A stretch of 64,000 bases of DNA from Eledone cirrhosa (taxonomy: Eukaryota). The notes under the pieces were generated by a model. It saw only the letters and a program-made list of their open reading frames with translations, searched no databases and was not told where the DNA came from. Location: contig OZ024743.1 of assembly GCA_964016885.1 (NCBI GenBank), positions 294,438,001 through 294,502,000 of the forward strand, in the 5' to 3' direction. Position 1 is the first letter of the stretch, and every line of letters begins with the position of its first letter. A program made the position numbers and the translations under genes. This document shows positions 1 through 59,605 of this stretch, in pieces.

Positions 1-545
1 GTATGTATATACACATGCTACTGTACGTCTGTATACATATATGTATGTACGTATACATACTTATATTTACGTAACAGCCGTACTAAGAGTGAGAAATGAA
101 ATTTCGTTTCATTTTTCCGTTTATCGTTTTCGGTACCCCGGCCGATTAACTCACTCGATATGCAAATTAGGCTGCTCAGCCATTAATATGCATAAGGAAA
201 GTATATACTTTCAGACGTTCAACCATCTGGCAGGAAGGTATACGTTGCTGACGATAGCTAATAAGCTTGAAACTAGTACAGCGTTCCTTTGTCAGTGTTG
301 AACAAATGAGCAACGATGATTGCTAGACACTGTACAGCTTAATTCGGGATGTTGGTTTACAAACACAGTGAGCATTATAATAAATGTTCGGTGAATCCAT
401 ACGTACATATATATATATGTACTGTATATATATATATACATACTACTGTACGTCTGTATACATATATGTATGTACGTATACATACTTATATTTAAGTAAC
501 AGCCGCACTAAGAATGAGAAATGAAATTTCGTTTCATTTTTTCCC
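1..545 (+). repeat. Tandem non-coding HHR-bearing repeat (~426 bp unit, ~1.3 copies visible); retrozyme-like or PLE terminal repeat, family H1
   Basis: 18-118 recurs at ~444-544. The same family occurs inverted at 47799-48700, with a fragment at ~23830-23890. Confidence 0.85.
242..284 (+). ncRNA. Minimal type I hammerhead ribozyme (H1)
   Basis: acgttg-CTGACGA-t agct aata agct t-GAAA-CTAG-TA-cagcgt. Stem I has 6 bp with one G-U, stem III is the palindrome ACTAGT, and the cleavage triplet is GUA. Confidence 0.85.
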
Positions 546-559
546 TATATATATATATA

Positions 560-8398: not shown

Positions 8399-8595
<197 letters not shown>

Positions 8596-9507: not shown

Positions 9508-9560
9508 GAGATTCTACAGGACTAGAACTGTTTCATTCTTTAGAAATCATCAGGAATCTC
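9508..9560 (-). ncRNA. Type I hammerhead ribozyme (H7)
   Basis: gagattc-CTGATGA-t ttc taaa gaa t-GAAA-cag ttctagtc ctg-TA-gaatctc. Stem I is a perfect 7 bp and the triplet is GUA. An inverted partial copy follows at 9561-9610. Confidence 0.85.
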
Positions 9561-9741: not shown

Positions 9742-10665
9742 ATATTGTTATACTTGGGGAGGGTCATATTTGTGTAATATTGCCAGAATTAATAACAGAA
9801 CACACTCACTGTTTGGTTGGTTTTCGCTTTTCGCTTCTGTGTCTTTTATATCGGTAATCTAATATATTCGGTCCTCAATGTTGCCATTGACTGACCGACG
9901 GTCAAAAATAATTGTTTCTACTTTTGGCACAAGGCCAGCAATTACCCAGTGCATTACTGGTACTTTATTTTATCGACCCCGTAAGGATGAAAGGCAAAGT
10001 TAACCTCGGCGGGATTTGAACTCAGAATGGCAAGGGCCGTAACTCTATGCATCAAAGCATGGCATCCAACCCTCTACCGATACTGCCATTTCACCAAAAT
10101 AATACATATAGAATATAGACACAAACACATATATATAGTTTATCATAAATCTTTCGTTGCACATCTGCAACATCGTCAGTGGCGCTATTGTTTCCTCCTG
10201 TTGAATTGTATGGCTACGCCATTTTTATTCAGTCTGTCTATATATTTATTTATTTATATATTTATTTATTTTTCATTAAAAAAATAAATAAATAAATATA
10301 TAGACAGACTGAATAAAAATGGCGTAGCCATAAAATTCAACAGGAGGAAACAATAGCGCCACTGACGATGTTACAGATGTGCAACGAAAGATTTATGATA
10401 AACTATATATATGTGTTTGTGTCTATATTGTATCTGTATTATTTTTGACCGTCGGTCAGTCAATGGCAACATTGAGGACCGAGTAAGTTAGATTACCGAT
10501 ATAAAAGAAACAGAAGCGAAAAGCGAAAACCAACCAAACAGTGAGTGTGTTCTGTTATTAATTCTGGCAATATTACACAAATATGACCCTCCCCAAGTAT
10601 AACAATATTTGTTTCGACACACGATTTCATATAAAAAACCTCGCAAAACTAATTCATCGCCGCTA
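9742..10665. repeat. Long palindrome of the lineage A/B PLE terminus (arms ~9742-10260 and ~10285-10607), with a SINE inserted in the left arm
   Basis: Near-perfect reverse complementarity once the SINE is removed. H5 HHR motifs at 10143-10182 (-) and 10359-10398 (+). Confidence 0.9.
9912..10096 (-). mobile_element. tRNA-derived SINE
   Basis: Same family as 4106-4322. TSD aaaataa(t). Confidence 0.9.
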
Positions 10666-15622: not shown

Positions 15623-15812
15623 AGGGCGGTGGATTGGCAATATCGGTAGAGGGTCGGACGCCATGCTTTCCAGCATAGTTACGTCCCTTTACGATCTGAG
15701 TTCAAATCCCGCCGAGGTTGACTTTGCTTTTCATCCTTACGGGGTCGATAAAATAAAGTACCAGTAATGCACTGGGTAATTGCTGGCCTTGTGCCTAAAG
15801 TAGAAACAATTA
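15623..15812 (+). mobile_element. tRNA-derived SINE
   Basis: Full-length family consensus. Confidence 0.9.
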
Positions 15813-15837
15813 TATATACATACATATATATATATAC

Positions 15838-15903
<66 letters not shown>

Positions 15904-15904
<1 letters not shown>

Positions 15905-18472
15905 GTCTCCTTTCCCACCATACCATAAATAGATTTGCAAAATCACCAGCTATGCTGACGCCAATGGCTGCTCCCTCATTAATAAAAGCGTTTCTATACT
16001 ACAACAAATAGATGACGAAACAGAGACACAGTTAGAGGCATAGCTAGAAATAAGCTTAGATAAGTAGTAGACCGATATACTAAGAGACAAAGCAGACCAG
16101 AAATCCAACAACTTGGAAGAAATCCTGTAGAAGGCCTAATTAGCCTCAAGCAGCGCGCAGGGGATGGTGAGATAGTGTGTCTACCTACAGATAAATCTGG
16201 TAGGATGTCAATAGACAACATGCCAAACTTTATCAAGGCTATGCAACCCCTCATCACCAGCACGAGCGAAACAACACAACAAACACACGATGGGAGAGAG
16301 AAGATCCTCAAAGCTCACATGATGATGTGGACTGACATCCTAGAGCCAAGCACACGCACTGCCAACAAATTCCAAGTGTCTAACAATGACAAACGACACT
16401 TGTATGGGCTCCACAAACACCATCATACAGCCCATGACCCGACGACAGGACCACCAACAAGACCTGTATGCGGAGCCAATATTGTTAGCAACTATAGAAT
16501 CTTCTACTTCCTCTCGATGGTTATACGCCCCATAGTTAATATATCCCCAGATGTATGTGACAGTACAGACGAGCTCCTCAGCACAATCAATGAGTGCAAC
16601 AAACACAACAACTTATCTAACTGCATAATAGGCAGTATGGATGTAATATCACTGTACCCATCCATTAACATTGATTTTGCCGTGGAAAAATGTGTGGAAA
16701 TAATCAGTGAGAGCGAGGTGGAGTTCTGCGACATTGACACAGATGAACTGGGCCTCCTCCTTAGACTTACTTATGACACCGAGTACCTAGATAACCATGA
16801 CCTTAGCTGTTTCTACCCCAGTAGATCCATAAGAGGTAGAACCTCCATCATAACCTGAATGGCTAAAAAGACTCCCATGGGAAGATGGAATGGATGGACC
16901 AAAGCGATACGGACACTCAAAAACAATGATCAGATGAGAAAAATGGTCGCACATGCAATAGGGGCTAGTATTAAAACTACCCTAAAGGGCCATATGTTTA
17001 AATTCAATGAAAAGATCTACACCCAGAATGATGGAGCAGCCATTGGCGTCAGCATAGCTGGTGATTCTGACTATCTATTTATGGTATGGGGGAAAGGAGA
17101 CTCAAAGATCTCTTTGAAGAGAGCTCCTTATACCTCCTCATGTACTCTCGTTACGTAGACGATATTAATATAGTAATAAGGACACCCCCACAAGGGAGTA
17201 CAAAGGAGCATGATGTAGAATATAGCACACTGGAAAGCATCCAGCAGATAGCTAACTCTATACACCAGAGTGTTACTGTAATTGTTCACTACCCTTCCAA
17301 ACACCCTAACAATAGACTACCAGTATTAGACACGGAACTCTGGATTAACACTATAATCGAGAGGGCCTACATTTTCCACTCACACTACGCTAAACCGAGG
17401 GCCTCCAAATGCCTGATACTCAAAAACTCAGCAATGTCCAGTAGTGCTAAGTTTAATATTCTGATCATCGACTCGGTACGCGTGATGAAGAACGTTTCTC
17501 GCATGTGCGACCCAACTGAAATGGAAAGACACATCCAACACTTCATCAACTGCATGCAGTTATCTAGCTACAACAAACGAGATAGAATCATAATAGACAA
17601 AGAAGCCACGGAGAAGTTTAAGACCCTCATAGAAATGGACATGAAAGGAATTTGCTCATTATGCAGGAGCAAATCATGGAATAGCTTAGACTAAACATAA
17701 TATAGAGAAAAACACTTCATGGTACGACAACCAGAGATACCAGAGTGTCATGTTCGTGGATGCTACCTCTGAGGGTAATTTAGCTAACCAATGTAGAAAG
17801 GCCTTAAGAAAGACGCACTTAAAGATTAATGTGGTAGAAAAGCCAAGAACTACCATAAAATCCCTGATCAGCAAAACATACCCCTTTAAGAAAACCCACT
17901 GTACTAATAAGAAATGTGTTATATGTAAAGTGAACCCCCTGGTAAACTGTTAAACTAGAAATGTAGTCTATAGAATAAGATGTACAGAGGTTACTTGCAG
18001 AAACATGACAAGGACATACATAGGTGAGACATCTCAAAGCATAGGAGAAAGAATAGACCAACACCGGGTGAATTAAAAGGACAAAAAAAAAAAACGGTTC
18101 TGTACTATACGAACACGCCAGACAAAGACATGACGGTAATATAGACAACGTAGAAATTAAAATAATATCTAAACATAGAAATGACCCAACAGGTAGGTAA
18201 ATCAGAAAAGCAAGTGAAATAGAGCTTAGAAAGCCAAAGATTAACAGAAAAAACGAATGAAATAACAGCAATGCCCAAACAAACAATACTGACTTAAGGG
18301 AAATATAAATATATAAATAAATATATACACAAGTACAATAACAAACATATATAAACACACACAAGTAGACAAAGATAGAATACAAAAACCAAAACACATA
18401 CACTCAAATGCGAACACACACACCAAACATTATACACACACGCAAACGCATGCGCAGAGATGGAGACAAAAA

Positions 18473-20280: not shown

Positions 20281-20443
20281 TCGGTGGATTGGCAGTATCG
20301 GTAGAGGGTCGGACGCCTTTACGGTCTGAGTTCAAATCCCGCCGAGGTTAACTTTGCCTTTCATCCTTACGGGGTTGATAAAATAAAGTACCAGTAATGT
20401 ACTGGATAATTTATGGCCTTGTGCCAAAAGTGGAAACAATTAT
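20281..20443 (+). mobile_element. tRNA-derived SINE with internal deletion
   Basis: Family consensus, with a deletion between ggacgcc and tttacg. Confidence 0.85.
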
Positions 20444-21770
20444 TTAAAATCTGCTATGAAAAATTTCTCATATTTAACTGCTATGCTTAAGAGCTGTCAT
20501 GTTTGTGATCATGCATTTATATTATCATCGCACAGTATGAGTTGATGGAATCGCAATAAGTGAACAGAATAATGATAATATTTGAAATAATATTCGATTT
20601 TCTATCATACGAGATTATCACCTTTTCAGAAGTATGATAATCAAAAAGAAATGTAGTTGTTTTTATTTATTTGCCTTTCCTACTGCCTGTATCACTATAT
20701 TGCTCTTACTAGTCATCTTTGATAATACAAGTTATAATTCCTGTAATAAAGTCGATTAACAAGATAATTGTTTTTCTTAATTCTATTGACACAGTTTCTT
20801 CCTTGTTGACTTGTCAAATTAACATGTAATTATATTATCAGTCGTTCTCTTGATCTGAGATTTGAGAAGAGAAAATTGAAAAATAAAAGCAAAAGGAAAA
20901 CTATCAAAAATGATGTAACAATAAAATAGAATCATCATCGTTATTATCATTTCCCCATTCTCAAAAACAACAAAAAATCGACAACTAACAGTTTGTTTTG
21001 TATTATTTGTTGTTAATTATTAAGTTAGCTAGCTAGTTATTTCAGACCTGGTGTTCAATTTGAAGCCGATCTTAATAATGGTGTTTTATATTTCTTTTTA
21101 CTTGTACTTAACTTACTGATCAAATAGATTTTAATTAAACGTTAAAAATTAGTCATTTAGAGATTAGAAAGGAACGCTTCCTAGAGATGATTTCGCGAGT
21201 ATTCTCTCTCCAACTGCATTAAAAAATTGAATAAAGGTCAGGCGATCCCATTTCCATCTTACCTAAAAAGAATATATCGATTTTTGTCATTTATGAAACG
21301 AAAACCCAAATGCCATTTATTTCACGAAATAATGAGAAAAAAATTCATTCCTTGATGTTTCCGTAATTAGAATTGCTCACCAAAGGGGATTAACTCTGTA
21401 GAATTCAGCAGAGACAAAAATGAAATTTGTAATATGAATGATATGCTATTTCCACGTTTTGTACAAATTAGACTGGAATAATATAATTAAACTCGGGGAC
21501 CGAATCTAATCTGAGGAATTGCCTCCGCGGAGATTAGAATGTACACATTGCGAGAGCCATTCTATGTCGTTGGCAACAATACAATAAAGATATATACACA
21601 ATCCCTTGCATACTAAGTTCAAAATTCATAGTCAACTATTTGTGTGGTACACATAATCCATGATCCGTCTTAACACCAATTGTCTCTCGTACTTAAACAG
21701 GATAATCTAATATAGATCACCTTTCTCAACAGCACCAATGCAAGGAAATATATTCACAAGCACTTAAACA

Positions 21771-21799: not shown

Positions 21800-21807
<8 letters not shown>

Positions 21808-22745
21808 TAAACGGAATAGAAAATGCTGACAGAGTGTTCACAGTTGAAAAATGGTTTAATTAGGAATAAAAGAGTTTTAGTAATTGTATGGGTTAGTATT
21901 CAGTTGTGGTTTTAAGTTTTTTAAGTTTTTACCGGTTGCGCATTTCTAAATGCTTTTCAAAAATAATTTTGAGATAGAGTGTTCGTGTTGTTTGCTCTGA
22001 TCTGATTACTTTTGGGAATTCTACCTCTTTATATGTTAAAAAAAGTGGCTCCAGCGCTAGTTTGGTGTTGCAAAAATTCTTGTGGTCAAAACAATTTTGA
22101 TTGGTCGGTAGAGGACAACAGAATGAACCAAATCCTACGAACACACGATATCATAAAGAGCAAAAGACAATCCAAGTCAATGAAAAACATCCTAACACAT
22201 GCCAAAGTACTGCCAACCACAACAACGAAACCAACAGTAAATAAATGCGATAGACCCAACTGTGACATTTGCATCAACCTAATAGAGGGTTCAGAATTCT
22301 ATTTCAAAGAAGGACAACGTTTTATAGTAAAACACAATTTCACATGTGCATCGGAAATCTAATATATGTATTAACTTGCTCAGGTTGTCGAGAACAATAC
22401 ATAGGCCAGACCAAAAACAGCCTCCGCCAACGCATGACTGTCCATAGATCCCAAATTAAAATACGGGAATACAGGAAAATACCACTGAGTGTGCCGCCCA
22501 AAATCATCCCAACTTCAGAATCTTTCCCCTCTACAAATTTAAAGATAATGCCACCCACACCCAGCGCATCAGCAAGGAATCTTACTTCATTAACAAATAC
22601 GGACCCCGTTGAAACACTTCTCCCTAAGACGAACTCACAACATACACACGTCACCATACATGCCTACATCAGCACACATCTCTACCCACATATAAACACA
22701 ATGACATACGTAAACACACATGCTCTATGATGCAAAACAAAAAAA

Positions 22746-22803
<58 letters not shown>

Positions 22804-22972
22804 ATATATGTATATATATATATAGTGAATATCATTTCACACCTTTTATCTTTGTTAAGATTTTTGATTTTCTATTAAGAGAACCGATTTTACTGAAAAA
22901 ATCGAATAATGTACACCATTTTACCTGGGGGAAAAAAATACTGGTCCACCCACACACACACACACACATTCT

Positions 22973-23026
<54 letters not shown>

Positions 23027-23210
23027 CATACACACATACACACGCGTACATTAACATACAAAGAGACTTATACACACACACACACACACTTCTCCGTATA
23101 AGACAAAAGCTGAAAAATATCTTTTGACCTGCTAAAATACCCCCACTGCTTACAGACACATTCCTACTGCCCATCCCTGCTACCACGAATTACTCTGCTA
23201 TACACACGCA

Positions 23211-23249
<39 letters not shown>

Positions 23250-23543
23250 CGCCATTTGACACACATCCCTGCTAACCATTATCACAACATCGAACACCTT
23301 ACTACTGCTACACACACACACACATATTTGTTGTGAAAGAGTCATTTCTCAGTCTTGGCGCAAAATCAATTTTTTATTCACATGACCTCTACCGACCAAT
23401 CAAAATTGTTTTGACCACAAGAATTTTTGCAAATACCAAGTATCGCTGGAGCCACTTTTTTAACATAAAAACAGTCTTGGCGCAAAATTAATTTTTTACA
23501 TTCACATGACCTCTACCGACCAATCAAAATTGTTTTGACCACA
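21800..23543 (+). mobile_element. 5'-truncated Neptune-like PLE preceded by inverted pLTR (21800-22115)
   Basis: KCDRPNCDICINL...FTCAS/NLIYVLTCSGCREQYIGQTKNSLRQRMTVHRSQI (GIY-YIG). Highly similar to the reverse complement of 26700-28275. The inverted part matches 26500-26820. Confidence 0.9.
21926..21964 (-). ncRNA. Atypical HHR-like motif (H9: UUGAAAA...GCAA)
   Basis: ttt-TTGAAAA-gcattt ag aaatgc-GCAA-CCGG-TA-aaa, with the palindrome ACCGGT. Second copy at 26614-26650 (-). Confidence 0.5.
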
Positions 23544-23774
23544 GGGTTTGCTGTCTGAAGATATCAGCCAATCTTAACTGCAAGTCTTCAGTATATTATG
23601 CATAACGGAAATTTAAATAAAGCCGAATCAACTGAATACGGTCTCCGATATTTATTAATGTATGATGATCCGTCTTGTACCATTCATACAGGTCGTTGAG
23701 CGCTTCATTTTATCTGTTTCACAACCGGCCGACCATAATGTGATCCACACATCTCTGTTCTGTTAACCCCATAA

Positions 23775-23819
<45 letters not shown>

Positions 23820-23918
23820 ATATATATAAGTATGTATAACAGCCGTACTAAGAGTGACAAATGAAATTTCGTTTCATTTTTCCGTTTCTACAATATATAT
23901 ATATATAATATATATAAA

Positions 23919-24777: not shown

Positions 24778-25125
24778 TTACGGCCCTTTCCATTCTGAGT
24801 TCAAATCCCGCCGAGGTTAACTTTGCCGTTCATTCTTACGGGTTCGATAAAATAAAGTACCAGTAATACACTGGTTAATTGCTGGCGTTGTGCCTAAAGT
24901 AGAAACAATTATCTTTTGTTTGGCAAAAGGCGATGGATTGGCAGTATCGGTAGAGGGGCGGACGCCATGCTTTGAAGCATACAGTTACGGCCCTTGCCAT
25001 TCTGAGTTCAAATCCCGCCGAGATTAACTTTGCCTTTCATCCTTACGGGTCGATAAAATAAAGTACCAGTAATGCACTGGCTAATTGCTGGCCTTGTGCC
25101 AAAAGAAGAAACAATTATCTTTTGT
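24778..25125 (+). mobile_element. Two tandem SINE copies (5'-truncated, then full-length)
   Basis: The second copy is flanked by the duplication ttatcttttgtttggca. Confidence 0.85.
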
Positions 25126-26463: not shown

Positions 26464-26893
26464 TTAAAAGAATAGAGGTGTAACACACGAGTTATGATAT
26501 ATTGGTAAAAGAAAAAGAAAATGCTAACAAATTATTCCCAGTGAAAAATAGTTTAATTAGGAATAAGTAAAAATTAGTAATAAGTATTGGTTAGTATTCA
26601 GTTTTAGTTTTAATTTTTACCGGTTGAGCATTTCTAATGCTTTTCAAAAATAATTTTGAGATAGAGCGCCCGTGATGTTTGCTCTAATCTGATTAGTTTT
26701 GGAAATTCTACCTGTTTCATGTGAAAAAAGTGGCTCCAGATGTATTAAAATAAATTTCGCGCTAATTCGTGTTGCAAAAATTCTTGTGGTCAAAACAATT
26801 TTGATTGGTCGGTAGAGGTCATGTGAATGTTAAAAATTGATTTTGCGCCGAATGTAGGTTTGTCTCGGCTGAAAAATAAGTCTTTTAAGACAA

Positions 26894-26945
<52 letters not shown>

Positions 26946-27186
26946 TAGTAAAGAGGTTCATTGTTGTGATAATGGTTAGTAGGGATGTGTGTGTGAATTG
27001 CAGTCATGTTGACAGGTCAACAGTTCAGGTGCATATTAAGACATATGAGTGTGTGTGTGTGTGTGTGTGTGTGTAGCAGAGTAATTCGTGGTAGAGGGAT
27101 CGGTCAGTAGGAATGTGTCTGTACGTGTGTGGAGGATATTTTAACATGTTAAAAGATATTTTTCAGCTCTTGTCTTATACGGAGAA

Positions 27187-27218
<32 letters not shown>

Positions 27219-30200
27219 CTCTTTGTATGTTAGTGTACGCGTGTGTATGTGTGTGTGTATATATATGTGTGTGTGTATATGTGTGTATGTGTGTGTGTGT
27301 GTGTGGGTGGACCAGTATTTTCGTGATACTGGTAAAAATGGTGTACATTATTTGATATTTTCAGTAAAAAACGATTCTCTTAATAGAACATCAAAAACCT
27401 TAATAATAAAAGGTGTGAAATGTTATATAGTATTGTCATAACACCAAGGTGTGTGTGAGTGTCCAGATTGTACGTACTGCAAGGGGAATCCATTAGGCCC
27501 TGCCGTATTGGAATACTTGTGTACAAATATGTATGTGCCCATCAGTGTGCAATGCATGTGTGCGTATATGTATGTGTGTGTTGGCACATTTATATCTATA
27601 GACATCAAAAGGTATACAAATTTGTGTATATTTGTATTGCACCATAGAACATATGTGTTTACGCATGTCATTGCGTTTATATGTGGATAGAGATGTATGT
27701 AGGATGTATGCTGTTGTAGGTATGTATGTTGACGTGTGTATGTTGTGGGTTCGTCTTAGGAAGAAGTGTTTAGACGGGGTCCGTATTTGTTAATAAAGTA
27801 AGATTCCCTGCTGATGTGTTGGGTGGGGGTGGCATTATCTTTAAATTTGTAGAGGGGAAAGATTCTGAAGTTGGGATGATTTTGGGCGGCACAGGTATCA
27901 ATGTGTTCACTCAGTGGTATTTTCCTGTATTCCCGTATTTTAATTTGGGTCATGCATTGGCGAAGGCTGTTTTTGGTCTGGCCTATGTATTGTTCTCGAC
28001 AACCTGAGCAAGTTAATACATATATTGGATTTTATGATGCGCATGTGAAATTGTGTTTTACTATAAAACGTTGTCCTTCTTTGAAATAGAATTCCGAACC
28101 CTCTATTAGGTTGATGCATATGCCACAGTTGGGTCTATCTCATTTTCTTACTGTGGATTTCGTTGTTGTGGTTGGCAGTACTTTGGCATGTGTTAGGATG
28201 TTTTTCATTGACTTAGATTGTCTTTTGCTCTTTATGATATCGTGTGTTCGTAGGATTTGGTTCATTCTATGGTCCTTTTTTAACACAGGGATGTTCTGGA
28301 GGATGGTGTAAAAGGCCTCATTGTCGAGGGGGTTGTGTGTGGAGATGTATGGAAGAGCTTTTAGTTTCGGTTGATTTACTTTAGGGTGTCTAAGGTCCTG
28401 GGTACTGAGTTTTAGGGCACGTTTAATTCCATTGTCAATTAGTGATGCAGGGTAGTCCCTGCCTATGAGTGTGTCCTTTAGTTCTTGTAGCCGTAAGTAG
28501 CAGATGTTTTTATTGGAGACTATAGTACAGATTCTCTTGGCTAAGTTGTAGGGAATATTAATTTTAACGTGTCTAGGGTGGCAAGAGTTGAAAGGAAGAT
28601 ATTGCTTGGAGTCTGTGGGCTTGTAGTATATGTCTGTTTCTATTTTTGTTGTTATGAAGCTTAATGAGGATGTCGAGGAAGGGGAGTTGTTGATGGCTGT
28701 ATTCCATCGTAAAGTTAATATTCGTGATGAGCCCATTTATAAGGGTGTGAAATTCTTTAAGTTTCTCGATGCTTTCGTGCCAAAGGATGAAGCAGTCATC
28801 TAGATATCGCGTCCAGTTCCTTTCTATGTGTAAGTGGAGAGTGTTTCCAAATTAGTTTTGTACTTTAGTGTAGAGGGTGATTTCCAGGTATCCCATGACT
28901 AGGTTAGCATAAGTGGGGGCTGTTTTCCTTCACATAGCAGTCCCAGATTTCTGCCTATAGGATTTGTTATTGAAAACGAAGTAATTGATCTCCAAGATAA
29001 ATTTGAGTCCCTCTATCACGAATTCCTTTGTGATGCCTTGTGGGAGTTCATTGTGGTAATGATCCAGCCAGAATTGGATAGCTTCTATTCCTAGGTTGTG
29101 GGGGATGTTGGAGTATAGGTTGACTACATCGAACGTCACTAATAGGGTTTGTTCAGAAAGGGTCATATTAGGGAGGTGATTGAGCATATCTAAGTCTTCC
29201 CTTATATAGCTTTTGATGTGTTTGAGAAAAGCCTTGAGAAGGGTGTCAATGAACTTGCCAAGGCGGTGGGTTTCGCAAGCGAGCCTGCTATTATAGGTCT
29301 TAATTTGAGATCATTGGGGGAGGGGACATTGATGACTATGTCTGCGGCTTCCTTGCATGCCTTACTTATTAATTTGCTTTTATGTACTTTAGGGATACCG
29401 TAGAAAAGGCTGAATTTATTTGTGAAGTCTGTGATGAAGCTGAATTCCTTGTTAGTGAGTCCTTCTTTGTATTGGTCAGAGATTTTAGGTCTCTCATAAT
29501 TTCCTGTTGATTGTAGTGTTCAGCCTTTTCGTAGTATGTTTCGTTTTCCAAAGTGGAGAGCGCTAAGTTGATATAGAATTATGTCTCCATTAGGACTACT
29601 GTACTCCTTTTATCAGCTTTATTAATTGTAATGGTTCTGTCGGTTTTTAATCTATTTAATTCTTCCCATTCTTTCTTGCTGAGGTTTGGCTTGTGCTTTT
29701 GTCTGTGCAAGTGTTGGTAAGGGAAGTTTGTGATGTGTTTACAGAATTCGTCCAGGATTTTATTTATACTTTTTGATGGGGTGTAGTTGCTTCTATTTCT
29801 GGCTAATGATTCATCCTCATTGTACTGGTGGAATAGTTCTTCACTGAGTCGTAACTTTCTACAGAAGTCTGTGATGTCTTCCTTCATTTCATAGTAGTTA
29901 GGACGTAGTGGGTTCGGTGTGAATTTAAGACCTTTGGAGAGTAAGTTGATAAGGTTGGGTGTTGGTTCTGCACTAGTTAGATTGATAATTTTTATTACTC
30001 TCGGTTTCTCCTCCCTGTCTTGTGTTATTTTGTTTGCCTGTATCTGCGTGCTGTGTCTAAAAAATGGTTGGGGTAGAGGGGTTGTCTGCTGATGTTAAGT
30101 GGTCTCCTGTGTTTGTTATATTACTTGTTGTTTTAAAATGTGGTTCGGGTTCGTGGTTGTAGATTGAATGCGGTGTTCCTGTATTGCGAGTATGGAGGTG

Positions 30201-31452
30201 TGTTTCTATGTGCCATGTTGGATTGTGGTGTTATAGGTGGCCTACGTTGTTGGTTGTATCGTGTGGTGTGGGTTTGTTGTGTATTGTGGAAGCGAGAGTT
30301 GAGAAAATGGAAATTACCTTGCTGTCCCGTTGAAGCGGGGAAGTTGTTACATCTATCATGGTGGTGGTATATTTTCCCTATGTTTGTCGATGAGGCATCC
30401 GCGTAGTTGTTGAGTGGTTTGGTATGGTGTCTCCTTGAAGGGGGAAAGTTGTAAATGTCATTCTGGGGGTGATGATTTCTAGGGTTTTTGTTCCTTCTTA
30501 TGGTAGCGAGGTTGGGAAGTTCATCTTCAGTGTGGTGTTTCCTACTTCTTTTGTTGTTGGTGGGGGGGTTGGGAAGTTGTTGTGCGGTTCGGTTAGGGTT
30601 TTCCTATTTTTATGAACGGGTTATTGGAGGTGTAATCCGTTTGAAAAGTCGATTCATAGTTTAGGAACCAAGCGGCACTTTTTTCCCAGCGTTGAAGGGA
30701 TTTCAGTTCTTCTCTGTTGCAGTCCCCTTTCCATAATTTAGAGATCTTCTCTACCTTGGGGCCTTCAGTCTTATTGTTGATTTCCAGGAGGATCTCTTCA
30801 TCGATGGTTTTGATTTTTTCCTCATTTGTCTGGGCCCTCAGTTTAAGAAGTTCAATTTCTGTCTTCATTTTTTCCAATGCCATTCTTTCCCTAAGGTGTC
30901 TTTGAGGTTCGGGTTCATTTGGAATGGACTTTATTTGTATGTTACGGGGTAGAGTTAGTGGGGTTGAGTTAAGCTATTTTTCATATATCTTCGCTTTGTT
31001 GTGATTTTGTATCATCTTCCAGAATGAGAACTTTCTGTCTCTGAGGGATTTGTTCCATTCTGGAATTGTTCAAATTTTCATTTTGTATGAATCAATCTCA
31101 CATGGTTCTTCGTTGTTTTTTCCTGGGTTGGTAGTAGTGAACATAGTTTGGATAGTATCGCAAAGGTTTTGAAGTTTATCGCCGATTTAGGAGGGTTTGT
31201 ATCCGGTGACGGTTTTCTCATTTGTGGAGTCAAGTTTGTCGACCAGCACAGATAGGTTGGTGTTAATTTTCTTGAGCTCCTGTAGAATCTCTTCATTTGT
31301 GTTGATATGAGTTGTATCTGTTTTTGTTGGCATTTTCTGTATCTCGTGTGAGGATATGATATTTAAAAGAATAGAGGTGTAACACACGAGTTATTTTATA
31401 TTGGTAAAAGGAAAAGAAAATCCTGACAAATTGTTCCCAGTGAAAAATAGTT
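26461..31452 (-). mobile_element. Near full-length Neptune-like Penelope element (~5 kb), pseudogenised
   Basis: Terminal direct repeat 26461-26552 / 31360-31451, with (TA)n on both sides. ORF pieces from ~31333 to 27756: LLSKGLKFTP, INKADK..TVVLM, FYGIPKVHK, LRPIIAG, LVTFDVVNLYSNIP, YRQKSGTAM, RYLDDC, YYKPTDSKQYL..SCHP, GIY-YIG. Confidence 0.92.
27756..31333 (-). pseudogene. Neptune-like PLE polyprotein (N-terminal region, RT, Cys linker, GIY-YIG) with frameshifts and stops
   Basis: ORF fragments 31187-31387, 30593-30883, 29579-29887, 29369-29551, 28930-29187, 28140-28736 and 27756-27953 are colinear with the PLE domain order. Confidence 0.9.
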
Positions 31453-43192: not shown

Positions 43193-43870
43193 GGGGCATC
43201 CAAGAAAGAAGAAATGAAACTGTCCGGCTTTCTATCTAGAAAGACAATCGATTAGCGATAGAGATAAAGTTTGCAAGAACTTCTGAAGATTCTTTGTTTG
43301 AGTTTCCTGGAATTAATATAGGCAAACATCATGTGTAAATATGACCTACACATACATACAATCAGAAATACATATATACGTAGACACACAAACATTCGTG
43401 TTCTAAATAGATATGTCCACTGGTAACGCGAGTACAAATACATACACTTGCATGTAAGCACACAATAATTCTTCACATTTTACATCCCTGCGAAGATCGT
43501 ATATACATTTCCTCCCCCAAATCAATACTTTTACACATACATACATGCATGTATATTAAAAGATTGCGCCAAATTCAAATAGTAAGGCTATTCCTGCTTT
43601 GTGTAAAAATTACTAGCCATAAATATTTTGCCCTTGAAGTTGTTATTGGTAGAAATTCGTCAGTTCAGGTGACGGCTGTTTCAGTTGTTTGAACAATGGA
43701 ATAGCTTGCACTAAAATTAACGTTCAGGTGGCTGAACCTTTCACAACCACGTGCACCGTTAACGTAGGGTTTCAGTGTGTAACAGATGTTTTACAGTGAT
43801 GTCCTTATGAATCACAAGTGCACCTCATATATTTCAAATTATATGGACTAGAGCAACATAAAAATATAAT

Positions 43871-44056
43871 TGTTTCTAATTTAGGCACAAGGCCAGCAAT
43901 CACCCAGTGCATTACTGGTACTTTATTTTATCGACCCCGTAAGGATGAAAGGCAAAGTTAACCTTGACGGGATTTGAACTCAGACTGTAAAGGGACGTAA
44001 CTATGCTGGAAAGCATGGCGTCCGACTCTCTACCAATACTGCCAATCCCCCGCCCT
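43871..44056 (-). mobile_element. tRNA-derived SINE with 14 bp TSD
   Basis: TSD cataaaaatataat at 43857-43870 and 44057-44070. Confidence 0.92.
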
Positions 44057-45648
44057 CATAAAAATATAATGTCATGTTCAAAGGCACAATGTGACAGAAA
44101 ATTAGAGAATATCCTTCGATTGGTTATATGAAGTGAATGAAGAGCTACTGATAAGTAAACTATATTAATTACTCATATATTATTTCCAAAAAATTGTGCT
44201 AGCAAGTCTCATTTTATGAGAAAAATATGCTACAATACGTAGCAAAACTAACTCCTAAATGCACAGGAAATAATGTTTCAAAAGCTCAGTAAATATGTCA
44301 AGCAAACTGTGAAGAATCTGACGTACAATCAAAGCAAAATAAAAGAAACATAGCTAGCATCAGAAAAGCATGTGGTCGCCGCTTACGGTCATATAGAAAT
44401 GTGTGAAGAATATAAGCATTTCAAATCCCAGCTTACTGTAACATAAACAAATATATACTATCTATAACGATAAACCACCAATTAAAAGAAAGAATGGTGA
44501 GAAAACGTAGCATAAATTAAATCTGCCCCCGTTGGAACATTGGATGCTTTGCTCTATTGTGACGCAGCTGCTTTTCCACAAATGATGGAACTAACAGCGA
44601 TCAATCTAATGAGAACCCGCAAATAAAATGGATCATCTCTCTTAAAACACGCGCACGCATACACATTCAGATACATACACACGTACATCAACACATATAC
44701 AGGGTCCCCCCCCCCCGAACAAATCTATACAAAGTTGATTACCTGTACAGTCAATATTTATTAGAATGCTATTTAGGGACACACTGTATATAAGTAAATA
44801 TATATAAGGTCGTATAATGAGCTTGTCGACAAATATCGCACAATGACACTATCTTTTCACTCAAACTAAACAATGAATTCATCTCCTATAGTGAATGTTA
44901 TTAAAAACTGACTACAATATAGCTCACATAGCTATCAATAACGACAGAAGCAATAGTTACAAATATAATTGCTTTTAACAATAGACACAATAGAGGATGA
45001 CAGCTTTTCTGCAATGTTGTTCGTCTTGGCAGTGAAACACCTGTTGAGAAAATCCCAAGTCCACACGATAGGATTTGCTGAGTTATGAAGATTCAATGCT
45101 ACCCATATCTTTTTCTCGGTGATCTTAAGCTATAATCAAGTGATAAACACTGTTATAGGAATTGCGTGGAACAGATTACGTTATATTCATGATACATATG
45201 AATTCAGTTTTGATAGGATATTTGCTAGTCAATTAAAGAAATATTGTTGACCAAATGGGGAATATGTGTATCATGACGAATGCTGCAGGTATCTCGGAAT
45301 TAATGAGAATATTTATCTACGTTGGTGCTGTGAGTAAAGCTAGAGTGGTAAAGGAATAGTTTTGCAGACTTTCGATGGCATGAAAGTCAGAGCTCTTCAG
45401 ATGCAATAAGGCAATTTGTCAAAAGGATTTAACTATGTCAGTGTTAGTACCAACATTTATAATACAATACTAAATTGAAAAAACAAATAAACCTGAACCA
45501 AAACATCAATGTTTGGAAGGTACTAATAACCACTGGTTACTTTTACCTTCTGCATAAACAGCGACACTGTGATGGTATATGTTAAATTGAGGAACGAGGA
45601 CTTTAATAGTCAGCCCCAAATATTTTGGTGCCAAATTAAATCAATAAT

Positions 45649-45759
45649 TGTTTCTACTTTTGGCACAAGGCCAGCAATTATTCCAGTGTATTACTGGTAC
45701 TTTATTTTATCGACCCCGTAAGGATGAAAGGCAAAGTTAACTTCGGCGGGATTTGAACT
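45649..45759 (-). mobile_element. 5'-truncated SINE with 16 bp TSD
   Basis: TSD aaattaaatcaataat at 45633-45648 and 45760-45775. Confidence 0.9.
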
Positions 45760-47647: not shown

Positions 47648-47788
<141 letters not shown>

Positions 47789-48091
47789 TATATATATTAA
47801 ACTATATAAATGGAATAGAATGAAATGAAATTTCATTTCTCACTCTTAGTACAGCAGTTACTTAAATGTAAGTATGTATGTATGTATACGTACATACATA
47901 TATGTATACAGACGTACAGTAGTATGTATATATATACATACATGCACACATATATATATATGCACGTATCGGTTTACCGAACATTTATTACAATGCTCGG
48001 TTTATTTGTTTGTAAACAAACAAACAGCCCGAATTACGCCGTACAGTGTTTAGGCAACCACGTCACCTTTTTGTTCAACATTGACACAGGA

Positions 48092-48134
48092 ACGATGTAC
48101 TAGTTTCAAGCTTATTAGCTATCGTCAGCATCGT
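48092..48134 (-). ncRNA. Minimal type I hammerhead ribozyme (H1)
   Basis: acgatg-CTGACGA-tagctaataagctt-GAAA-CTAG-TA-catcgt, with a perfect stem I. Confidence 0.9.
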
Positions 48135-48539
48135 ATACCTTCCTGCCAGATGGTTGAACGTATGAAAGTATATACTTTCCTTATGCATATTAACGGCTGA
48201 GCAGCCTAATTTGCATATCAAGTGAGTTTAGTCGGCCTGGCGCACCGAAAACTATAAATGGTATAGAATGAAACGAAATTTCATTTCTCACTCTTAGTAC
48301 GGCAATTACATAAATGTAAGTATGTATGTATGTATACGTACATACATATATGTATACAGATGTACAGTAGTATGTATATATATACATACATGCACACATA
48401 TATATATATGCACGTATCGGTTTACCGAACATTTATTATAATGCTCGGTTTGTTTGTTTGTAAACAAACAAACAGTCCGAATTACGCCGTACGATGTTTA
48501 GGCAACCACGTCACCTTGTTGATCAACACTGACACAGGA

Positions 48540-48582
48540 ACGATGTACTAGTTTCAAGCTCATTAGCTATCGTCAGCATCGT
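48540..48582 (-). ncRNA. Minimal type I hammerhead ribozyme (H1)
   Basis: As above. The only change is in the stem II loop (aata>aatg). Confidence 0.9.
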
Positions 48583-48723
48583 ATACCTTCCTGCCAGATG
48601 GTTGAACGTCTGAAAGTATATAATTTCCTTATGCATATTAACGGCTGAGCAGACTAATTTGCATATCGAGTGAGTTCAGTCAGCCGGGCACACCGAAAAC
48701 ATACTTACATATAAATATATATA

Positions 48724-48802
<79 letters not shown>

Positions 48803-48807
<5 letters not shown>

Positions 48808-50161
48808 GGGTGTATCTAATAGGATTTCCACACTCTCTAAGGACGTAGGAACATTTAATGAACATGCGGAGTACTATAATAATGCCCTAGCAAATTCCGG
48901 TTACTCTAGTAAAATACATTGTAATAATAGTAACCTTAGAAAGTCTCCGCTTACTTATAATAATAATAACATAATATCACATAACATGGCCATGAATGGG
49001 AGTAGGAAGCATAATAACCGTAAAAATTACATAGGTGTATCTGAACCCATCCATAAGTTAACCCACGGGACTCGTAATAGGGAATATAATACCTCTAGGA
49101 AACAAGTCGAACCCTCTGAGCGCTCACTAATTGGTGATAATTTTGCTAGATCAAATTCTAATATTGTTGCTTCTACTGATCCTATTATTGGCCCTAATCC
49201 TTTTGATGGGATTCCAGACGACAGCAGATCTACTGGAGGTAGAAACAATAAGAGACTGAATGGAATTTTGGCTGATTCTAATAATGCGGTTTTAACTAAT
49301 CCTTGTAGTAACCCTAGTCTTAATAGTGGGATATTAGATAATGGTAGATTCGGTAAGGATAAAAATAGAAGGAGACTAAATACTTATTTTAACCCGCCAT
49401 ATAATCAGGAAGTATTAACTAATATCCCTAGGTCTTTCTTTTCTATCTTAGAGAAAAATTTCACCCCTTCTCATAAATACCATAGTATTTTTAATAAAAA
49501 TGTTATTAAACTTTCATTCTCTACCACCCCTAATATTAGTTCTCATTTAGCTAGCACTAACAATAGGAAAATTAGGGATGGATTCTCCTCTCTACATACT
49601 ACTAGTCTGAACAGATCTGGAAATGCCTTACCACCAGAACAGACCTTATCTAATAGCAATCCTACGTGTAATGCATCACTACTTCAGCCAACCAATAGCA
49701 CCCGGAAGTGTAACTGTAGAGTGAGTGCTAACTGCCCTTTAAACGGTAACTGCCTTTCTAAGAACATCGTCTATGCTTGTGTAGTTATAACTAATTCCTC
49801 TAATAGAACTTATATAGGCTCTACATCTAACACTTTTAAGACTAAGTTTAATTCACATATCTCTAATTTCAAACATGTTAAGTTTAAGAATTCTACTTCT
49901 TTAGCACACTATATCTGGGATCTTAAGGGGGCTAATATACCATATAGCCTTAATTGGCGTTTAGTAGCACGCTCTAATAACCTTTCTACACATACTAAAT
50001 TTTGTAATCTCTGTATCCTCGAGACACACTCTATAATTTTCTCTAGCGAATCCTTACTTAATAAAAAGTCTGAGGTATTCTCATCTTTCCCCCACGCTAT
50101 TTCTAATTCTTACTTTTATTATAAACCTAAAGGTTCTAGTAGTATAAATCGTATCCATTAG
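48803..50161 (+). CDS. Nematis-like PLE ORF remnant: RT thumb, long Asn/Ser-rich linker, FNPPY domain, CxC..CPL.G.C, GIY-YIG endonuclease
   Basis: The frame is open from the (TA)n at 48803 (IKGVSNRISTLSKD..F..HAEYYNNALANSGY) through the listed ORF 48986-50161 (NIVY...TYIGST..FK..H...CNLCILE...LLNKKSE). Confidence 0.85.
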
Positions 50162-51896
50162 CTGATATATTCCATTACTTATTTTTTAGTTTAGGTTCTT
50201 TTTGTTTACCACCATTATTATCATCATTATTATCATTGGTTTTTGACAACTCTTTATTCTAGCTCTCATAATCTTTAGGCTATTATACCATATCTATCTT
50301 CTTACGCATTAAATTTTCACTATTAACACCTTATGAGTATATATCTGATTATATATTTTACATTATTGTATTTTATTTCATTTTATTTTATTTTATTTTA
50401 TTTTATTTTATTTTATTTTATTTTATTTTATTTGGATTCTTCTTTGGATACCCCCCCCCCCACTCTCCCCCCATGCGCACATAAAATGATTGTCAACCCC
50501 TTCAAATAGATTATGATTATATTTAACCCCCCCTTCTTTTACGCTCCTTTCTATTATTTAATATAGTCTATTGACTATGATTTTATGCTCCTTTGTATCC
50601 TCAATACATTTCTTTTTTTCTGTCCCTATTAGCCTACCATAATTCTGCTTAAGTCAGTTTTTTAGATATCGTTATGTAAATGATAGTAGAAAATTTCATT
50701 CCTTTATATATATATTTGTAGTGAAATATTAACGTTTATAAATTTTGATTACTTAAACCATAGCTAATATTAGATATTTTAAATATTTTTAGATATTTTA
50801 AATATTTTTAATATTAATTTATCAAATAGGGTTTTCGAGTCATTTACCGGGGTTGTTTCCTAAGTTTTTACTTAACTGCATGTGAGATCTAAGTATATAC
50901 TTTTGTTTTTGTTTTTTAATTTCCGGTTGATTCTATTTATTTATTTATTTATTAATACTACTGTGCATTCTATTTACTGTCTGGCCCTTACTCACTCATC
51001 CACATATATGTCTGTTTACCAACCTTGTAATTATAAGTAATTATATATTATATTATGTTAATTATTTTATATTGTATTTGTTATTGTACTATCGATCCTT
51101 ATTACTTACCGTTGATTATATGTACCATTATGATATGTTAAATTTTATATATCATGTAAGATGTTTATATTTTTGTACCATCATAATTTTGGGTATTGTA
51201 CAATTTATATTTTTTCTCACCTACTCTGTAACTCTACATGAATTGATTTGTTAACGTGCATGCCATTATATATTATATATTATATATGTTATTATATTAT
51301 TATTATAGTATTATTGTGACATCTATATTGTTTGTGTAAATTAACCGGAGATTATCTAGTATATTATATCATATAGTATATAATTGTATAGTTTATTATA
51401 TATTATATGTGCTACTTATAATCATATCATATTATTACCTCATGTATATTAGATATACGTATTATTATTATTATTATTATTATTTTTATTCCTATCATGC
51501 TTATTTATATTTAAACTCTTAATAAGGTTTAATTTGCGCTGTTAAAGATGGATATGTGTATTGATGTATGTGTATATGTGCGTACGTGTGCGTACATATA
51601 TACATATGTATATTGTACCTTTTAATTTTTATTGTAATTTTAATATTGTTACAAGTATATTATATTATATTATATAGTATTATATATAATTCCCGCTCTA
51701 TATAACCACCTTTGTTTAGCTCTAGGTATTTTTGCTTTGAACTATATTTGTAATATGGTTCTAAATGTTATACACCTCCTTAGTGATTTTTATTATATAT
51801 TTTTACCCATAATCTTGCAATACTTTAGTGTATGTACACTCCATATTCTTCGGAGTTTTCGGCTTGTATTGGCCGATAATACTTCTTGTTGTTTTA

Positions 51897-51941
51897 ATTG
51901 CCCTGATGAGTCCTTAATAGGACGAAACATTGTTGGCTAAT
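51897..51941 (+). ncRNA. Minimal type I hammerhead ribozyme (H11)
   Basis: attgcc-CTGATGA-gtcct taat aggac-GAAA-C att G-TT-ggc(t)aat, with the near-palindrome AACA-T-TGTT. AATAAA is adjacent. Confidence 0.8.
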
Positions 51942-52097
51942 AAAGACTTTTGATGTATTGAAGGCTTCTTTGTTTTACTTTCATAATTCTTCGGCTCTGT
52001 TTAATTACATTGAGCTATACCTTTTACTGTCATTTCTATAATACGAAGAGGGTGTTTAACTCCAACACGCTCCAGTATTTTAATCCTTATATATATA

Positions 52098-53888: not shown

Positions 53889-54075
53889 GAGCGGTGGATT
53901 GGCAGTATCGGTAGTGGGTCGGACGCCATGCTTTCCAGCATAGTTACGTCCCTTTACGATCTGAGTTCAAATCCCGCCGAGGTCAACTTTGCCTTTCATC
54001 CTTACGGGGTCGATAAAATAAAGTACCAGTAATGCACTGGGTATTTGCTGGCCTTGTGCTTAAAGTAGAAACAGT
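53889..54075 (+). mobile_element. tRNA-derived SINE with 19 bp TSD and reiterated 5' junction
   Basis: TSD ttatctttgtatgaacatt at 53841-53859 and 54075-54093. Confidence 0.9.
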
Positions 54076-54199
54076 TATCTTTGTATGAACATTGATGAGG
54101 AAATGCTATGTTGCTATATATGCATAAAGAATCTTGAACTTTCCTGGTTATAGCAATAATGCTTGGTAACGCCATCAATATCTTTTAGATTTACCCCTG

Positions 54200-56744: not shown

Positions 56745-58280
<1,536 letters not shown>

Positions 58281-59260: not shown

Positions 59261-59437
59261 ATCATAATTTCTTTCCGCCACGCATATATCAGCTGCGTAA
59301 GCGTATTTAATTGTGTATTTACTTCAGAGACATTTCTTTACTGTTAGATGCGGCGTCAAAGATTTCACTATAAAAAAGGCATCTTTGAAATCGGAGCGTT
59401 AGGGGCAACTTCTGTCCACTTACTTGTTTTTAGAAAA

Positions 59438-59605
59438 ATAATTGTTTCTACTTTTGGCACAAGGCCAACATTTATCCAGTACATTACTGATACTTTATTT
59501 TATCGACCCCGTAAGGATGAAACGCCAAGTTAACCTCGGAGGGATTTGAACTCAGACCATAAAGGGGCGTAACTCTATGTTACAAAGCATGGCGCCCGAC
59601 CCACT
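59438..59605 (-). mobile_element. tRNA-derived SINE
   Basis: Family consensus. Confidence 0.85.

What the first reader, a model, noticed from the sequence alone, without database searches (positions are those of the whole stretch)
47799..48700. ORF-less ~448 bp head-to-tail HHR repeat: candidate retrozyme / circular RNA replicon
Seen: two tandem units, each with an intact minimal HHR exactly 448 bp apart, no ORF, set in (TA)n. A second tandem locus lies at 1-545 (~426 bp unit, opposite strand) and a fragment at ~23830. Stem I differs between loci (acgatg/catcgt vs acgttg/cagcgt) but stays paired. Established: metazoan non-LTR retrozymes are tandem non-coding HHR repeats whose transcripts self-process to monomers and circles. 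Inference: a minus-strand transcript would release a 448 nt monomer, with the two ACUAGU palindromes pairing as a double hammerhead, mobilised in trans by a PLE RT.
Basis: partly seen in the sequence, partly recalled or inferred. Interest (0 to 1): 0.8.

Follow-up and report, generated by a model that had tools for sequence, protein, structure and literature searches.

The report
Penelope-borne hammerhead retrozyme family
A 448-base non-coding repeat that carries a hammerhead ribozyme motif sits in TA repeats at an estimated tens of thousands of places in this animal genome, with the end pattern that Penelope-like retrotransposons leave, so it is likely a 'retrozyme', a known kind of RNA parasite that would borrow their reverse transcriptase.

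Summary
Confirmed: two head-to-tail 448-bp units (94% alike) in (TA)n, each with an intact type I hammerhead core on the minus strand and no real ORF. The ribozyme is full-size, not minimal: helix I continues past a bulge, and the stems covary across four subfamilies. The family is dispersed, about 35,000 loci (14,000-72,000) from a 600-kb sample. Copies show Penelope-like (PLE) integration marks: two fixed 3' ends 54 nt apart running into (TA)n (90 of 107 runs), ragged 5' ends, and 40 head-to-head inversions in 58 loci. No copy had a PLE ORF directly upstream (0 of 109 records), and the sampled autonomous PLEs carry other pLTRs. No end falls at the cleavage site, so the template is likely a circle or an uncut multimer, not the cut monomer. 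One RT+GIY-YIG PLE lineage that lacks a hammerhead shares a short 3'-terminal motif and is the candidate helper (about 50%). A conserved octamer plus TATA-like block suggests an internal promoter. Cleavage, expression and circles are untested. Verdict: new member of the known non-LTR retrozymes. The scan noted the same PLE pattern earlier in another genome, in a tRNA-bearing repeat.

The parts
48253..48700 (-). unit B, the first (5') 448-bp unit in ribozyme sense, subfamily S1
   Evidence: 9 private changes from the family majority, none shared with unit A
47805..48252 (-). unit A, the second 448-bp unit; ends at the family's outer 3' end (unit position 448)
   Evidence: 10 private changes
48536..48588 (-). 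type I hammerhead of unit B: core at 48576, predicted cut after 48546; loop II has one change from the family majority
48088..48140 (-). type I hammerhead of unit A: core at 48128, predicted cut after 48098; 6-bp helix I plus 3-bp extension, U.U at the base of helix II, 1-bp helix III with palindromic loop
48098..48545 (-). predicted 448-nt cut-to-cut monomer (36% GC, strongly self-paired)
   Evidence: inferred, no RNA seen
48657..48664 (-). octamer ATGCAAAT, 88 nt upstream of the core (also 48209-48216); predicted promoter element
   Evidence: conserved in S1-S4 and three distant families
48617..48626 (-). TATA-like box about 35 nt after the octamer (also 48169-48178)
   Evidence: by eye, function untested
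47859..47968 (-). microsatellite-like segment (unit 285-394; also 48307-48416) ending at the inner 3' end, unit position ~394
47805..47858 (-). 54-nt 'tail' between the two 3' ends, with a hairpin and the terminal motif (47807-47820) that matches a PLE 3' end at 13 of 14 bases
48701..48711 (+). likely 11-nt inverted arm (unit 381-391) running into (TA)n
   Evidence: read from the sequence; short, inferred from the pattern at other loci
47648..47797 (.). (TA)n target, 3' side
48709..48802 (.). (TA)n target, 5' side
1..551 (+). second locus, subfamily S2 (~426-bp unit), one hammerhead at 248-278; continues before the window as an inverted arm
   Evidence: L031
23830..23892 (+). 5'-truncated copy: tail only, in (TA)n
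26464..31400 (-). broken copy of the candidate helper lineage ('Pos', RT + GIY-YIG PLE) with its own two 3' ends; bounds approximate

Best explanation
This is a dispersed, ORF-less hammerhead repeat whose copies carry Penelope-like integration marks, and it is likely a non-LTR retrozyme that a PLE reverse transcriptase copies in trans from a predicted circular RNA. Shown: tandem units, intact cores, covarying stems, about 10^4 loci, two fixed 3' ends into (TA)n, ragged 5' ends, inversions, and copies that read through the cut site. Inferred steps: (1) the octamer/TATA-like block in unit B starts Pol II transcription shortly before the ribozyme; (2) the two weak helix III palindromes pair as a double hammerhead and cut out a 448-nt monomer, which a host ligase closes; a lone monomer would be stable because its predicted fold ties up the core; (3) a PLE protein nicks (TA)n and starts reverse transcription inside the RNA at unit 394 or 448, on one or both strands, running round the template to give partial tandems and head-to-head arms. 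Odds by step: ORF-less element moved by PLE machinery about 0.85; circle as template about 0.65 given that; 'Pos' lineage as helper about 0.5.
For: 3' ends of 107 runs at 58 loci: 54 at 430-448, 36 at 385-400, 17 elsewhere; 40 head-to-head inversions whose outer ends mostly use the same two sites. Tail, partial tandems and inverted 5' copies are PLE marks (10.1101/2021.04.23.441226, passages), and the tail equals the gap between two internal RT starts, with both strands extended (PMC11167929). No PLE protein hit upstream on the same strand within 700 bp in 109 unit-bearing records. 30 of 30 copies anchored downstream of the cut site run back through it. 7 of 15 pairs change on both sides, 0/500 shuffles. 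Helix III: self-duplex -4.8 versus hairpin +6.0 kcal/mol. Both weak features have precedent in axolotl retrozymes that cut better as dimers and form circles (PMC7229834). Units within an array are as far apart as units from different loci (0.033 vs 0.034), with no excess heterogeneity (p 0.11 and 0.88), as expected for near-identical units at insertion. Terminal motif: 5 of 569 random pre-(TA)n ends score as well, of which 4 are this family and 1 is the Pos end itself.
Against: No RNA was examined, so cleavage, transcription and circles are unshown. Only 1 of 9 predicted Xenopus dimers cleaved in vitro (10.64898/2026.07.22.740005). In the one PLE studied in vitro, uncut RNA was the main substrate, so read-through does not require a circle. 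Six of the 8 two-sided changes come from one S4 sequence, and the structure was drawn from these sequences. Only 13 of 58 loci hold two or more intact cores. No strand asymmetry of substitutions that would mark an RNA stage. The promoter block does not resemble this genome's U2 promoters above shuffles (59-210 of 300). The helper motif is 14 T-rich bases, is absent from S4 (179/534) and by eye from families F5, F6 and F8, and it matches the unit's second end to the helper's first; 3 unrelated ends also score 12-13 when all four subfamilies are used.
Confidence: 0.58

Rival explanations
1. Same ORF-less, PLE-mobilised element, but copied from uncut linear multimeric transcripts. The hammerhead would only trim 5' ends or act late, and tandems would arise by template jumps as in PLEs themselves.
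For: Ribozyme mutants did not affect insertion by the anole Poseidon protein, and uncut RNA was the dominant substrate (PMC11167929). No genomic test here separates a circle from a multimer. Some arrays share variants among only some units (L014, L074). The ribozyme has two weak helices.
Against: Inference: a linear route from an internal start loses sequence each round, yet arrays of 4-6 units occur at scattered loci. 5' ends show no pile-up at a start site. Full-size ribozyme stems are kept across four subfamilies.
Confidence: 0.25
2. The unit is the pLTR of an autonomous PLE not sampled here, and the copies are its 5'-truncated debris.
For: 24 of 57 Xenopus retrozyme families match known TEs, 21 of the 22 matched being PLEs, at their pLTRs. 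The genome could not be searched exhaustively (40 of 2228 and 40 of 1835 candidates scored). ORF detection used three PLE proteins only.
Against: 0 of 109 records with an upstream same-strand ORF. The sequence 5' of a unit is another unit, an inverted arm, (TA)n or unique flank. The three main PLE families end in other pLTRs. The one PLE starting 420 bp after a unit has no unit at its own 3' end (L237). 0 of 45 loci of three distant families are ORF-linked upstream.
Confidence: 0.08
3. A SINE-like element moved by a LINE with twin priming, or a Helentron-type rolling-circle DNA element (DINE-1-like; features recalled).
For: Inversions occur with L1 twin priming, and microsatellite cores, 3' hairpins and tandems occur in DINE-1-like elements (both recalled). 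LINE and Helitron proteins were not searched.
Against: Two alternative fixed 3' ends used by both arms, no poly(A), ragged 5' ends and a conserved ribozyme. The only terminal match found is to PLEs.
Confidence: 0.05
4. An ordinary minisatellite grown by unequal exchange, with a chance or dead ribozyme motif.
For: Rfam gives no hammerhead hit; the ribozyme region alone folds no better than shuffles (z -1.0 to -1.4); within S1 the core is little more conserved than the rest (1.4% vs 1.8%).
Against: Copies are dispersed over many contigs, mostly 1-2 units, truncated and inverted, and not homogenised; stems covary.
Confidence: 0.02

Closest known systems
Metazoan non-LTR retrozymes (Cervera & de la Pena 2020, PMC7229834): axolotl Rtz_331/Rtz_353, newt satellite 2, mussel 350-390-bp repeats
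   Same: Tandem 150-450-bp non-coding unit, type I hammerhead, GC under 50%, no LTR, self-paired monomer; 1-bp helix III with palindromic tetraloop (as HHR_Amex1) and U.U at the base of helix II (as HHR_Amex2).
   Different: Both weak features occur in one ribozyme; most loci hold 1-2 units; the parts of that paper I read report no tail, inversion or (TA)n pattern; expression and circles are not shown here.
Xenopus retrozymes derived from PLE pLTRs (Li, Clavereau & Pollet 2026, 10.64898/2026.07.22.740005)
   Same: Co-occurs with abundant PLEs; meets their working definition (two consecutive units with whole ribozymes).
   Different: No homology to any sampled pLTR beyond a short 3' motif; the candidate helper lineage has no hammerhead core; evidence for PLE mobilisation comes from integration marks, not from a tree.
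Penelope-like elements (Neptune/Nematis-type linker; Craig et al. 2021; Frangieh et al. 2024, PMC11167929)
   Same: Partial tandems, inverted 5' copies, optional tail between two 3' ends, AT-rich microsatellite target.
   Different: No ORF; full-size rather than minimal ribozyme; own octamer block, absent from the PLE pLTR ribozymes counted; tail 54 nt versus the 30-40 described.
Newt satellite 2 snRNA-type promoter (Coats et al. 1994; seen only as a passage and a title in PMC2220036)
   Same: An internal promoter is suggested inside a hammerhead repeat.
   Different: No significant likeness to this genome's U2 upstream DNA, which lacks the octamer.
Plant LTR retrozymes and viroid-like replicons
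   Same: Ribozyme-bounded non-coding RNA with a predicted circle.
   Different: Type I not type III; no long terminal repeats; no opposite-strand ribozyme found.

Membership tests
non-LTR retrozyme | short tandem unit of about 150-450 bp | tested here: met
   448 bp x 2.0; arrays of up to 5-6 units elsewhere
non-LTR retrozyme | complete type I hammerhead in at least two consecutive units | tested here: met
   13 of 58 S1 loci hold two or more intact cores
non-LTR retrozyme | no protein coded, GC under 50%, no long terminal repeats | tested here: met
   longest ATG frame 80 aa on the circle, GC 36%; architecture. PBS/PPT were not searched
non-LTR retrozyme | many dispersed genomic copies | tested here: met
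   7 loci in 60 x 10 kb, about 35,000 (14,000-72,000)
non-LTR retrozyme | self-cleavage of the transcript | not testable with these tools
   needs a bench assay
non-LTR retrozyme | expressed as linear and circular monomer RNA | not testable with these tools
   needs RNA data or a Northern blot
PLE-mobilised element | two alternative 3' ends (tail) | tested here: met
   90 of 107 runs end at two sites 54 nt apart
PLE-mobilised element | 5' truncation, partial tandems, inverted 5' copy | tested here: met
   40 inversions in 58 loci
PLE-mobilised element | identified autonomous partner sharing the RT start region | tested here: inconclusive
   13/14 terminal match of S1 to the Pos family; weaker for S2/S3, absent for S4
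autonomous PLE or its pLTR | RT + GIY-YIG ORF continuous with the repeat | tested here: not met
   0 of 109 records; L237; sampling not exhaustive
minimal PLE-type hammerhead | lacks peripheral helix I extension and tertiary loops | tested here: not met
   helix I extends past an internal loop, 95.8% paired
viroid-like replicon | ribozyme in both polarities or RNA-RNA replication | tested here: not met
   no plus-strand hammerhead in 47799-48700; other ribozyme classes checked only through Rfam on 48000-48260 and the listed rows of the window scan
snRNA-type promoter | PSE-like match to the genome's snRNA promoters | tested here: inconclusive
   U2 only, no score above shuffles; U1 and U6 not examined
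Helentron / DINE-1-like | fixed ends on both sides with subterminal inverted repeats (recalled) | tested here: not met
   5' ends are spread along the unit

The most novel reading that the evidence does not exclude
A superfamily of circular-RNA parasites (S1-S4, F5, F6, F8) with its own octamer/TATA promoter and full-size hammerhead, not derived from any resident pLTR, that hijacks a ribozyme-less PLE lineage by mimicking only the few bases at its reverse-transcription start. The tails and two-armed insertions would then be the first direct genomic footprint of a named PLE protein copying an animal retrozyme circle.
Probability: 0.3. Interest if true: 0.72.

Novelty: new member of a known kind. 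Interest (0 to 1): 0.5.

Why it matters
Which reverse transcriptase moves animal retrozymes, and whether the circle is the template, is still argued from co-occurrence and pLTR similarity (PMC7229834 discussion; 10.64898/2026.07.22.740005). Here the copies themselves carry the PLE-specific tail and inversion marks, and there is a candidate helper with many near-identical copies of a 784-aa open frame. That pair could go straight into the published PLE priming assay. The genome also holds several further hammerhead repeat families, a large unannotated source of possible circular RNAs.

Tried and rejected
Rfam scans gave no hammerhead family; the microRNA hits are microsatellite and hairpin artefacts. 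The repeat finder was swamped by (TA)n. Sequencing runs: no RNA holder listed; contigs of three runs of unrecorded kind were laid and tell nothing on expression. The adjacent PLE at 48803-~52090 as parent: opposite strand, separated by (TA)n, with its own pLTR and ribozyme; rejected. I first called it Naiad; wrong, since its endonuclease is C-terminal. The AB and A' PLE families as helper: same two-end anatomy but terminal scores of 3-5 against S1. L007/L237 as unit-plus-ORF: no unit at that PLE's 3' end. My first register for the outer helix I (72.9% paired) lost to the shorter one (95.8%). snRNA-type promoter: not significant against U2. Editing or deamination signature: none. Uneven mutation counts within arrays: not significant. 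Profile search of all held DNA for a parent pLTR found only further ORF-less ribozyme families. Coats et al. 1994 is not held. Paper searches listed no description of this family or of tail/inversion marks in retrozymes; only listings were seen for most hits, and Repbase/Dfam could not be searched.

Full report
1. Observation. Tandem Repeats Finder reports 47805-48700 with period 448, 2.0 copies and 94% matches, flanked by (TA)n. A descriptor scan of both strands of the 64-kb window gave six type I hammerhead candidates; three belong to this family: cores at 48576 and 48128 on the minus strand (cuts after GUA at 48546 and 48098) and 248 on the plus strand. The unit matches 126-553 at 84% and, by its last bases only, 23776-23878. 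On the circularised monomer the longest ATG frames are 80 and 73 aa. Rfam did not name the ribozyme.

2. The ribozyme. It has an intact CUGACGA/GAAA/UA core, a 6-bp helix I, a helix II opened by U.U, and a helix III of one pair closed by the palindrome ACUAGU. Related units give four subfamilies: S1 (448 bp), S2 (~426), S3 (~470) and S4 (468). On 9 aligned ribozymes (8 distinct), 7 of 15 pairs change on both sides and 93% of cells pair, with 0 of 500 shuffles as high and all slid controls far lower. Caveats: 6 of the 8 two-sided cells come from the single S4 sequence, and I drew the structure from these sequences. Helix I continues for 3 bp past a 3-nt/1-nt internal loop (95.8% paired; the other register I tried gave 72.9%), so the layout is that of full-size type I ribozymes (the likeness to the Schistosoma bulge is recalled). 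Of 91 ribozyme copies in the first 60 loci, 27 are identical S1 type and 19 identical S2 type. Helix III scores +6.0 kcal/mol as a hairpin and -4.8 as a self-duplex, and the predicted fold of the lone monomer pairs the core with loop III; this favours cleavage as a dimer. PMC7229834 (parts 2-4 of 6 read) describes a 1-bp helix III with palindromic tetraloop and a U.U at helix II in two axolotl ribozymes that cut poorly as monomers, better as dimers, and yield circles. The monomer folds at z -7.2, and -4.4 without its microsatellite part; the ribozyme region alone is not exceptional.

3. The family. The window lies in a 3.0-Gb genome. Searches gave 2228 and 1835 first-look candidates, of which 40 each were scored. 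In 60 regions of 10 kb taken at fixed coordinates (40 from the four largest contigs) there were 7 S1/S2 loci, all closest to S2, plus one S4 and one weak S3 hit: about 35,000 loci, 95% range 14,000-72,000. The best-scoring S1 copies differ from their majority by 1.8%, so the family is young but not brand new.

4. How copies are built. At 58 S1 loci (62 records less 4 duplicates; microsatellite-only segments and runs touching a locus edge dropped), 107 runs end 3' at 430-448 (54), at 385-400 (36) or elsewhere (17); 5' ends are spread along the unit; 40 head-to-head inversions were counted. The printed flanks show that most fixed ends run into (TA)n, a few into (TC)n or (CA)n, and that inverted arms mostly end at the same two sites; S2 does the same at ~369 and ~426. 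Partial tandems, an inverted 5'-truncated copy and an optional tail are described as PLE features (10.1101/2021.04.23.441226, 12 of 15 passages). PMC11167929 (parts 1-2 of 4) shows that the tail is the stretch between two internal RT starts and that both target strands are cut and extended. The unit boundary is thus set by the RT start, not by the ribozyme. No run begins or ends within 150-160, around the cut at 155/156 (0 of 107; about 2.6 expected if uniform, so this excludes a pile-up and is not a depletion). Because the first query required spanning the site, I repeated the search with unit 166-291: all 30 anchored copies run back past the cut, starting at 141 or earlier (4 repeat earlier loci). 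A cut linear monomer is therefore unlikely to be the template; a circle or an uncut multimer is. Units of one locus differ as much as units of different loci (0.033 vs 0.034) though they share five times more derived bases (0.185 vs 0.036 per 100 nt), on either arm. Heterogeneity within loci is not significant. The window's two units carry 10 and 9 private changes and share none. This fits insertion as near-identical units followed by neutral decay, and not satellite homogenisation.

5. Is it just a pLTR? Three PLE families are abundant (16,659, 23,137 and 71,404 first-look candidates). I fetched 36 regions around long frames and 20 further regions, half of them around other PLE frames. Their 3' ends are family-specific pLTRs unrelated to the unit. 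In 109 unit-bearing records (some duplicated places), no hit of three PLE proteins lay upstream on the same strand within 700 bp. The PLE that starts 420 bp after a unit has no unit at its own end. The PLE next to the finding (48803 onward) is on the other strand, 5'-truncated and has its own ribozyme near 51904. The test is a sample and used PLE proteins only, so a rare parent is not excluded.

6. Candidate helper. The 'Pos' family (my label; RVT_1 and GIY-YIG; CX4CxxC linker, i.e. Neptune/Nematis-type by the motif, clade not tested) ends at two sites 41 nt apart into (TA)n: of 38 ends, 20 at the first site, 15 with the tail, 3 other. Its first end matches the S1 outer end at 13 of 14 bases. 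Among 569 random 30-mers preceding (TA)n, 5 score as high: 4 are this family and 1 is that PLE end; nine other PLE ends score 3-8. Taking the best of S1-S4, 11 of 560 score 12 or more: 5 this family, 3 Pos-lineage ends, 3 unrelated. Over 70 nt the ranks are 3, 9, 1 and 179 of 534 for S1-S4. Neither of the two Pos-lineage families examined has a CUGANGA core in its 3' region. Against: the motif is short and T-rich, S4 lacks it, and it aligns the unit's second end with the helper's first. I put this at even odds.

7. Promoter. An octamer 88-100 nt before the core, followed about 35 nt later by a TATA-like box, is kept in S1-S4 (60 of 70, 37 of 44, 15 of 16, 8 of 9 ribozymes) and is absent from the PLE pLTR ribozymes counted (0 of 11, 0 of 9). 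A profile of the unit finds the same layout in distant families F5-F8. F5, F6 and F8 have 1744, 2631 and 745 candidates; of 45 loci none has a PLE frame upstream on the same strand, and F5 and F6 show two 3' ends into (TA)n by eye. Newt satellite 2 is reported to use an internal snRNA-type promoter (one passage of PMC2220036; the original is not held). This genome's U2 upstream DNA (20 loci) has no octamer and does not align with the unit above shuffles. A Pol II start shortly before the ribozyme is inferred, not shown.

8. Mechanism. Transcription from unit B through unit A would give two ribozymes that pair through helix III, release 48545-48098 as a 448-nt RNA, and allow a host ligase to close it. 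A PLE protein would nick (TA)n, start at unit 394 or 448 on one or both strands, and run round the template. Anatomy and integration pattern are shown; transcription, cleavage, circle and helper are inferred. The main rival is copying from uncut multimers.

9. Novelty. Non-LTR retrozymes are a described class, and their PLE link is argued in PMC7229834 and in 10.64898/2026.07.22.740005 (parts 1-3 of 5 read, supplements not seen; 35 species, no mollusc; 1 of 9 dimers cleaved). PMC6155905 was seen as passages. Six searches listed no account of this family or of tails and inversions in retrozymes; repeat databases were not available. The scan's own notes hold no look-alike but do hold a tRNA-bearing repeat with the same PLE pattern in another genome, unchecked here. 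Verdict: new member of a known kind, with unusually direct evidence for PLE mobilisation and a testable helper; interest 0.5.

Noticed in passing
L169:3850-9300; L199; L107; L117: A 310-bp hammerhead repeat with 17 ribozymes in one locus (12 direct, 5 inverted), the segments shown 100% identical; palindromic helix III, U.U at helix II, no octamer. It looks very young and is the best candidate for an expressed circle.
   Followed up: partly
window 9044-9450, 2270-2315, 8680-8720, 9515-9560: Pieces of three other hammerhead repeat families with self-complementary or hairpin helix III; the first two families are common in the random sample, often as inverted pairs.
   Followed up: partly
L245:5240-5470; L244:4715-4960; L246:5045-5290; L009:436-594: Distant octamer-TATA-hammerhead families F5, F6, F8 and F7. 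F8 copies often carry a changed core (UUGAUAA), suggesting an old or variant ribozyme.
   Followed up: partly
window 48803-52090 +: 5'-truncated PLE with C-terminal GIY-YIG, a ~1.8-kb AT-rich 3' region and its own hammerhead near 51904; 71,404 first-look candidates in the genome.
   Followed up: partly
window 6700-8400 + and 15900-18300 +; L091-L106: PLE families with open frames up to ~1270 aa, an Asn-rich N-terminal part, two 3' ends ~57 nt apart and frequent inverted pairs.
   Followed up: partly
window 10168-10373: Long hairpin that Rfam scores as plant microRNA precursors; by eye it is a head-to-head inverted PLE pLTR with a ribozyme core on each arm.
   Followed up: partly
window 26464-31400 - and 21800-23550; L107-L114: The Pos PLE lineage lacks a hammerhead core in its 3' region although its endonuclease is C-terminal; that region has repeated CCAAT-like and E2F-like motifs (labels recalled).
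   Followed up: partly
window 4165-4226, 9906-10003, 15718-15817, 20348-20446, 24817-25118, 43866-43961, 45639-45740, 53985-54078, 59436-59533: A very abundant ~100-bp SINE-like piece, found in most random regions.
   Followed up: no
L129-L146 (G000:C3:307.35-307.45 Mb): U2 snRNA genes in a 2.2-kb tandem array, with no octamer in 400 bp upstream.
   Followed up: partly
window 56762-58264: A 1.5-kb (TA)n/(TG)n microsatellite field.
   Followed up: no
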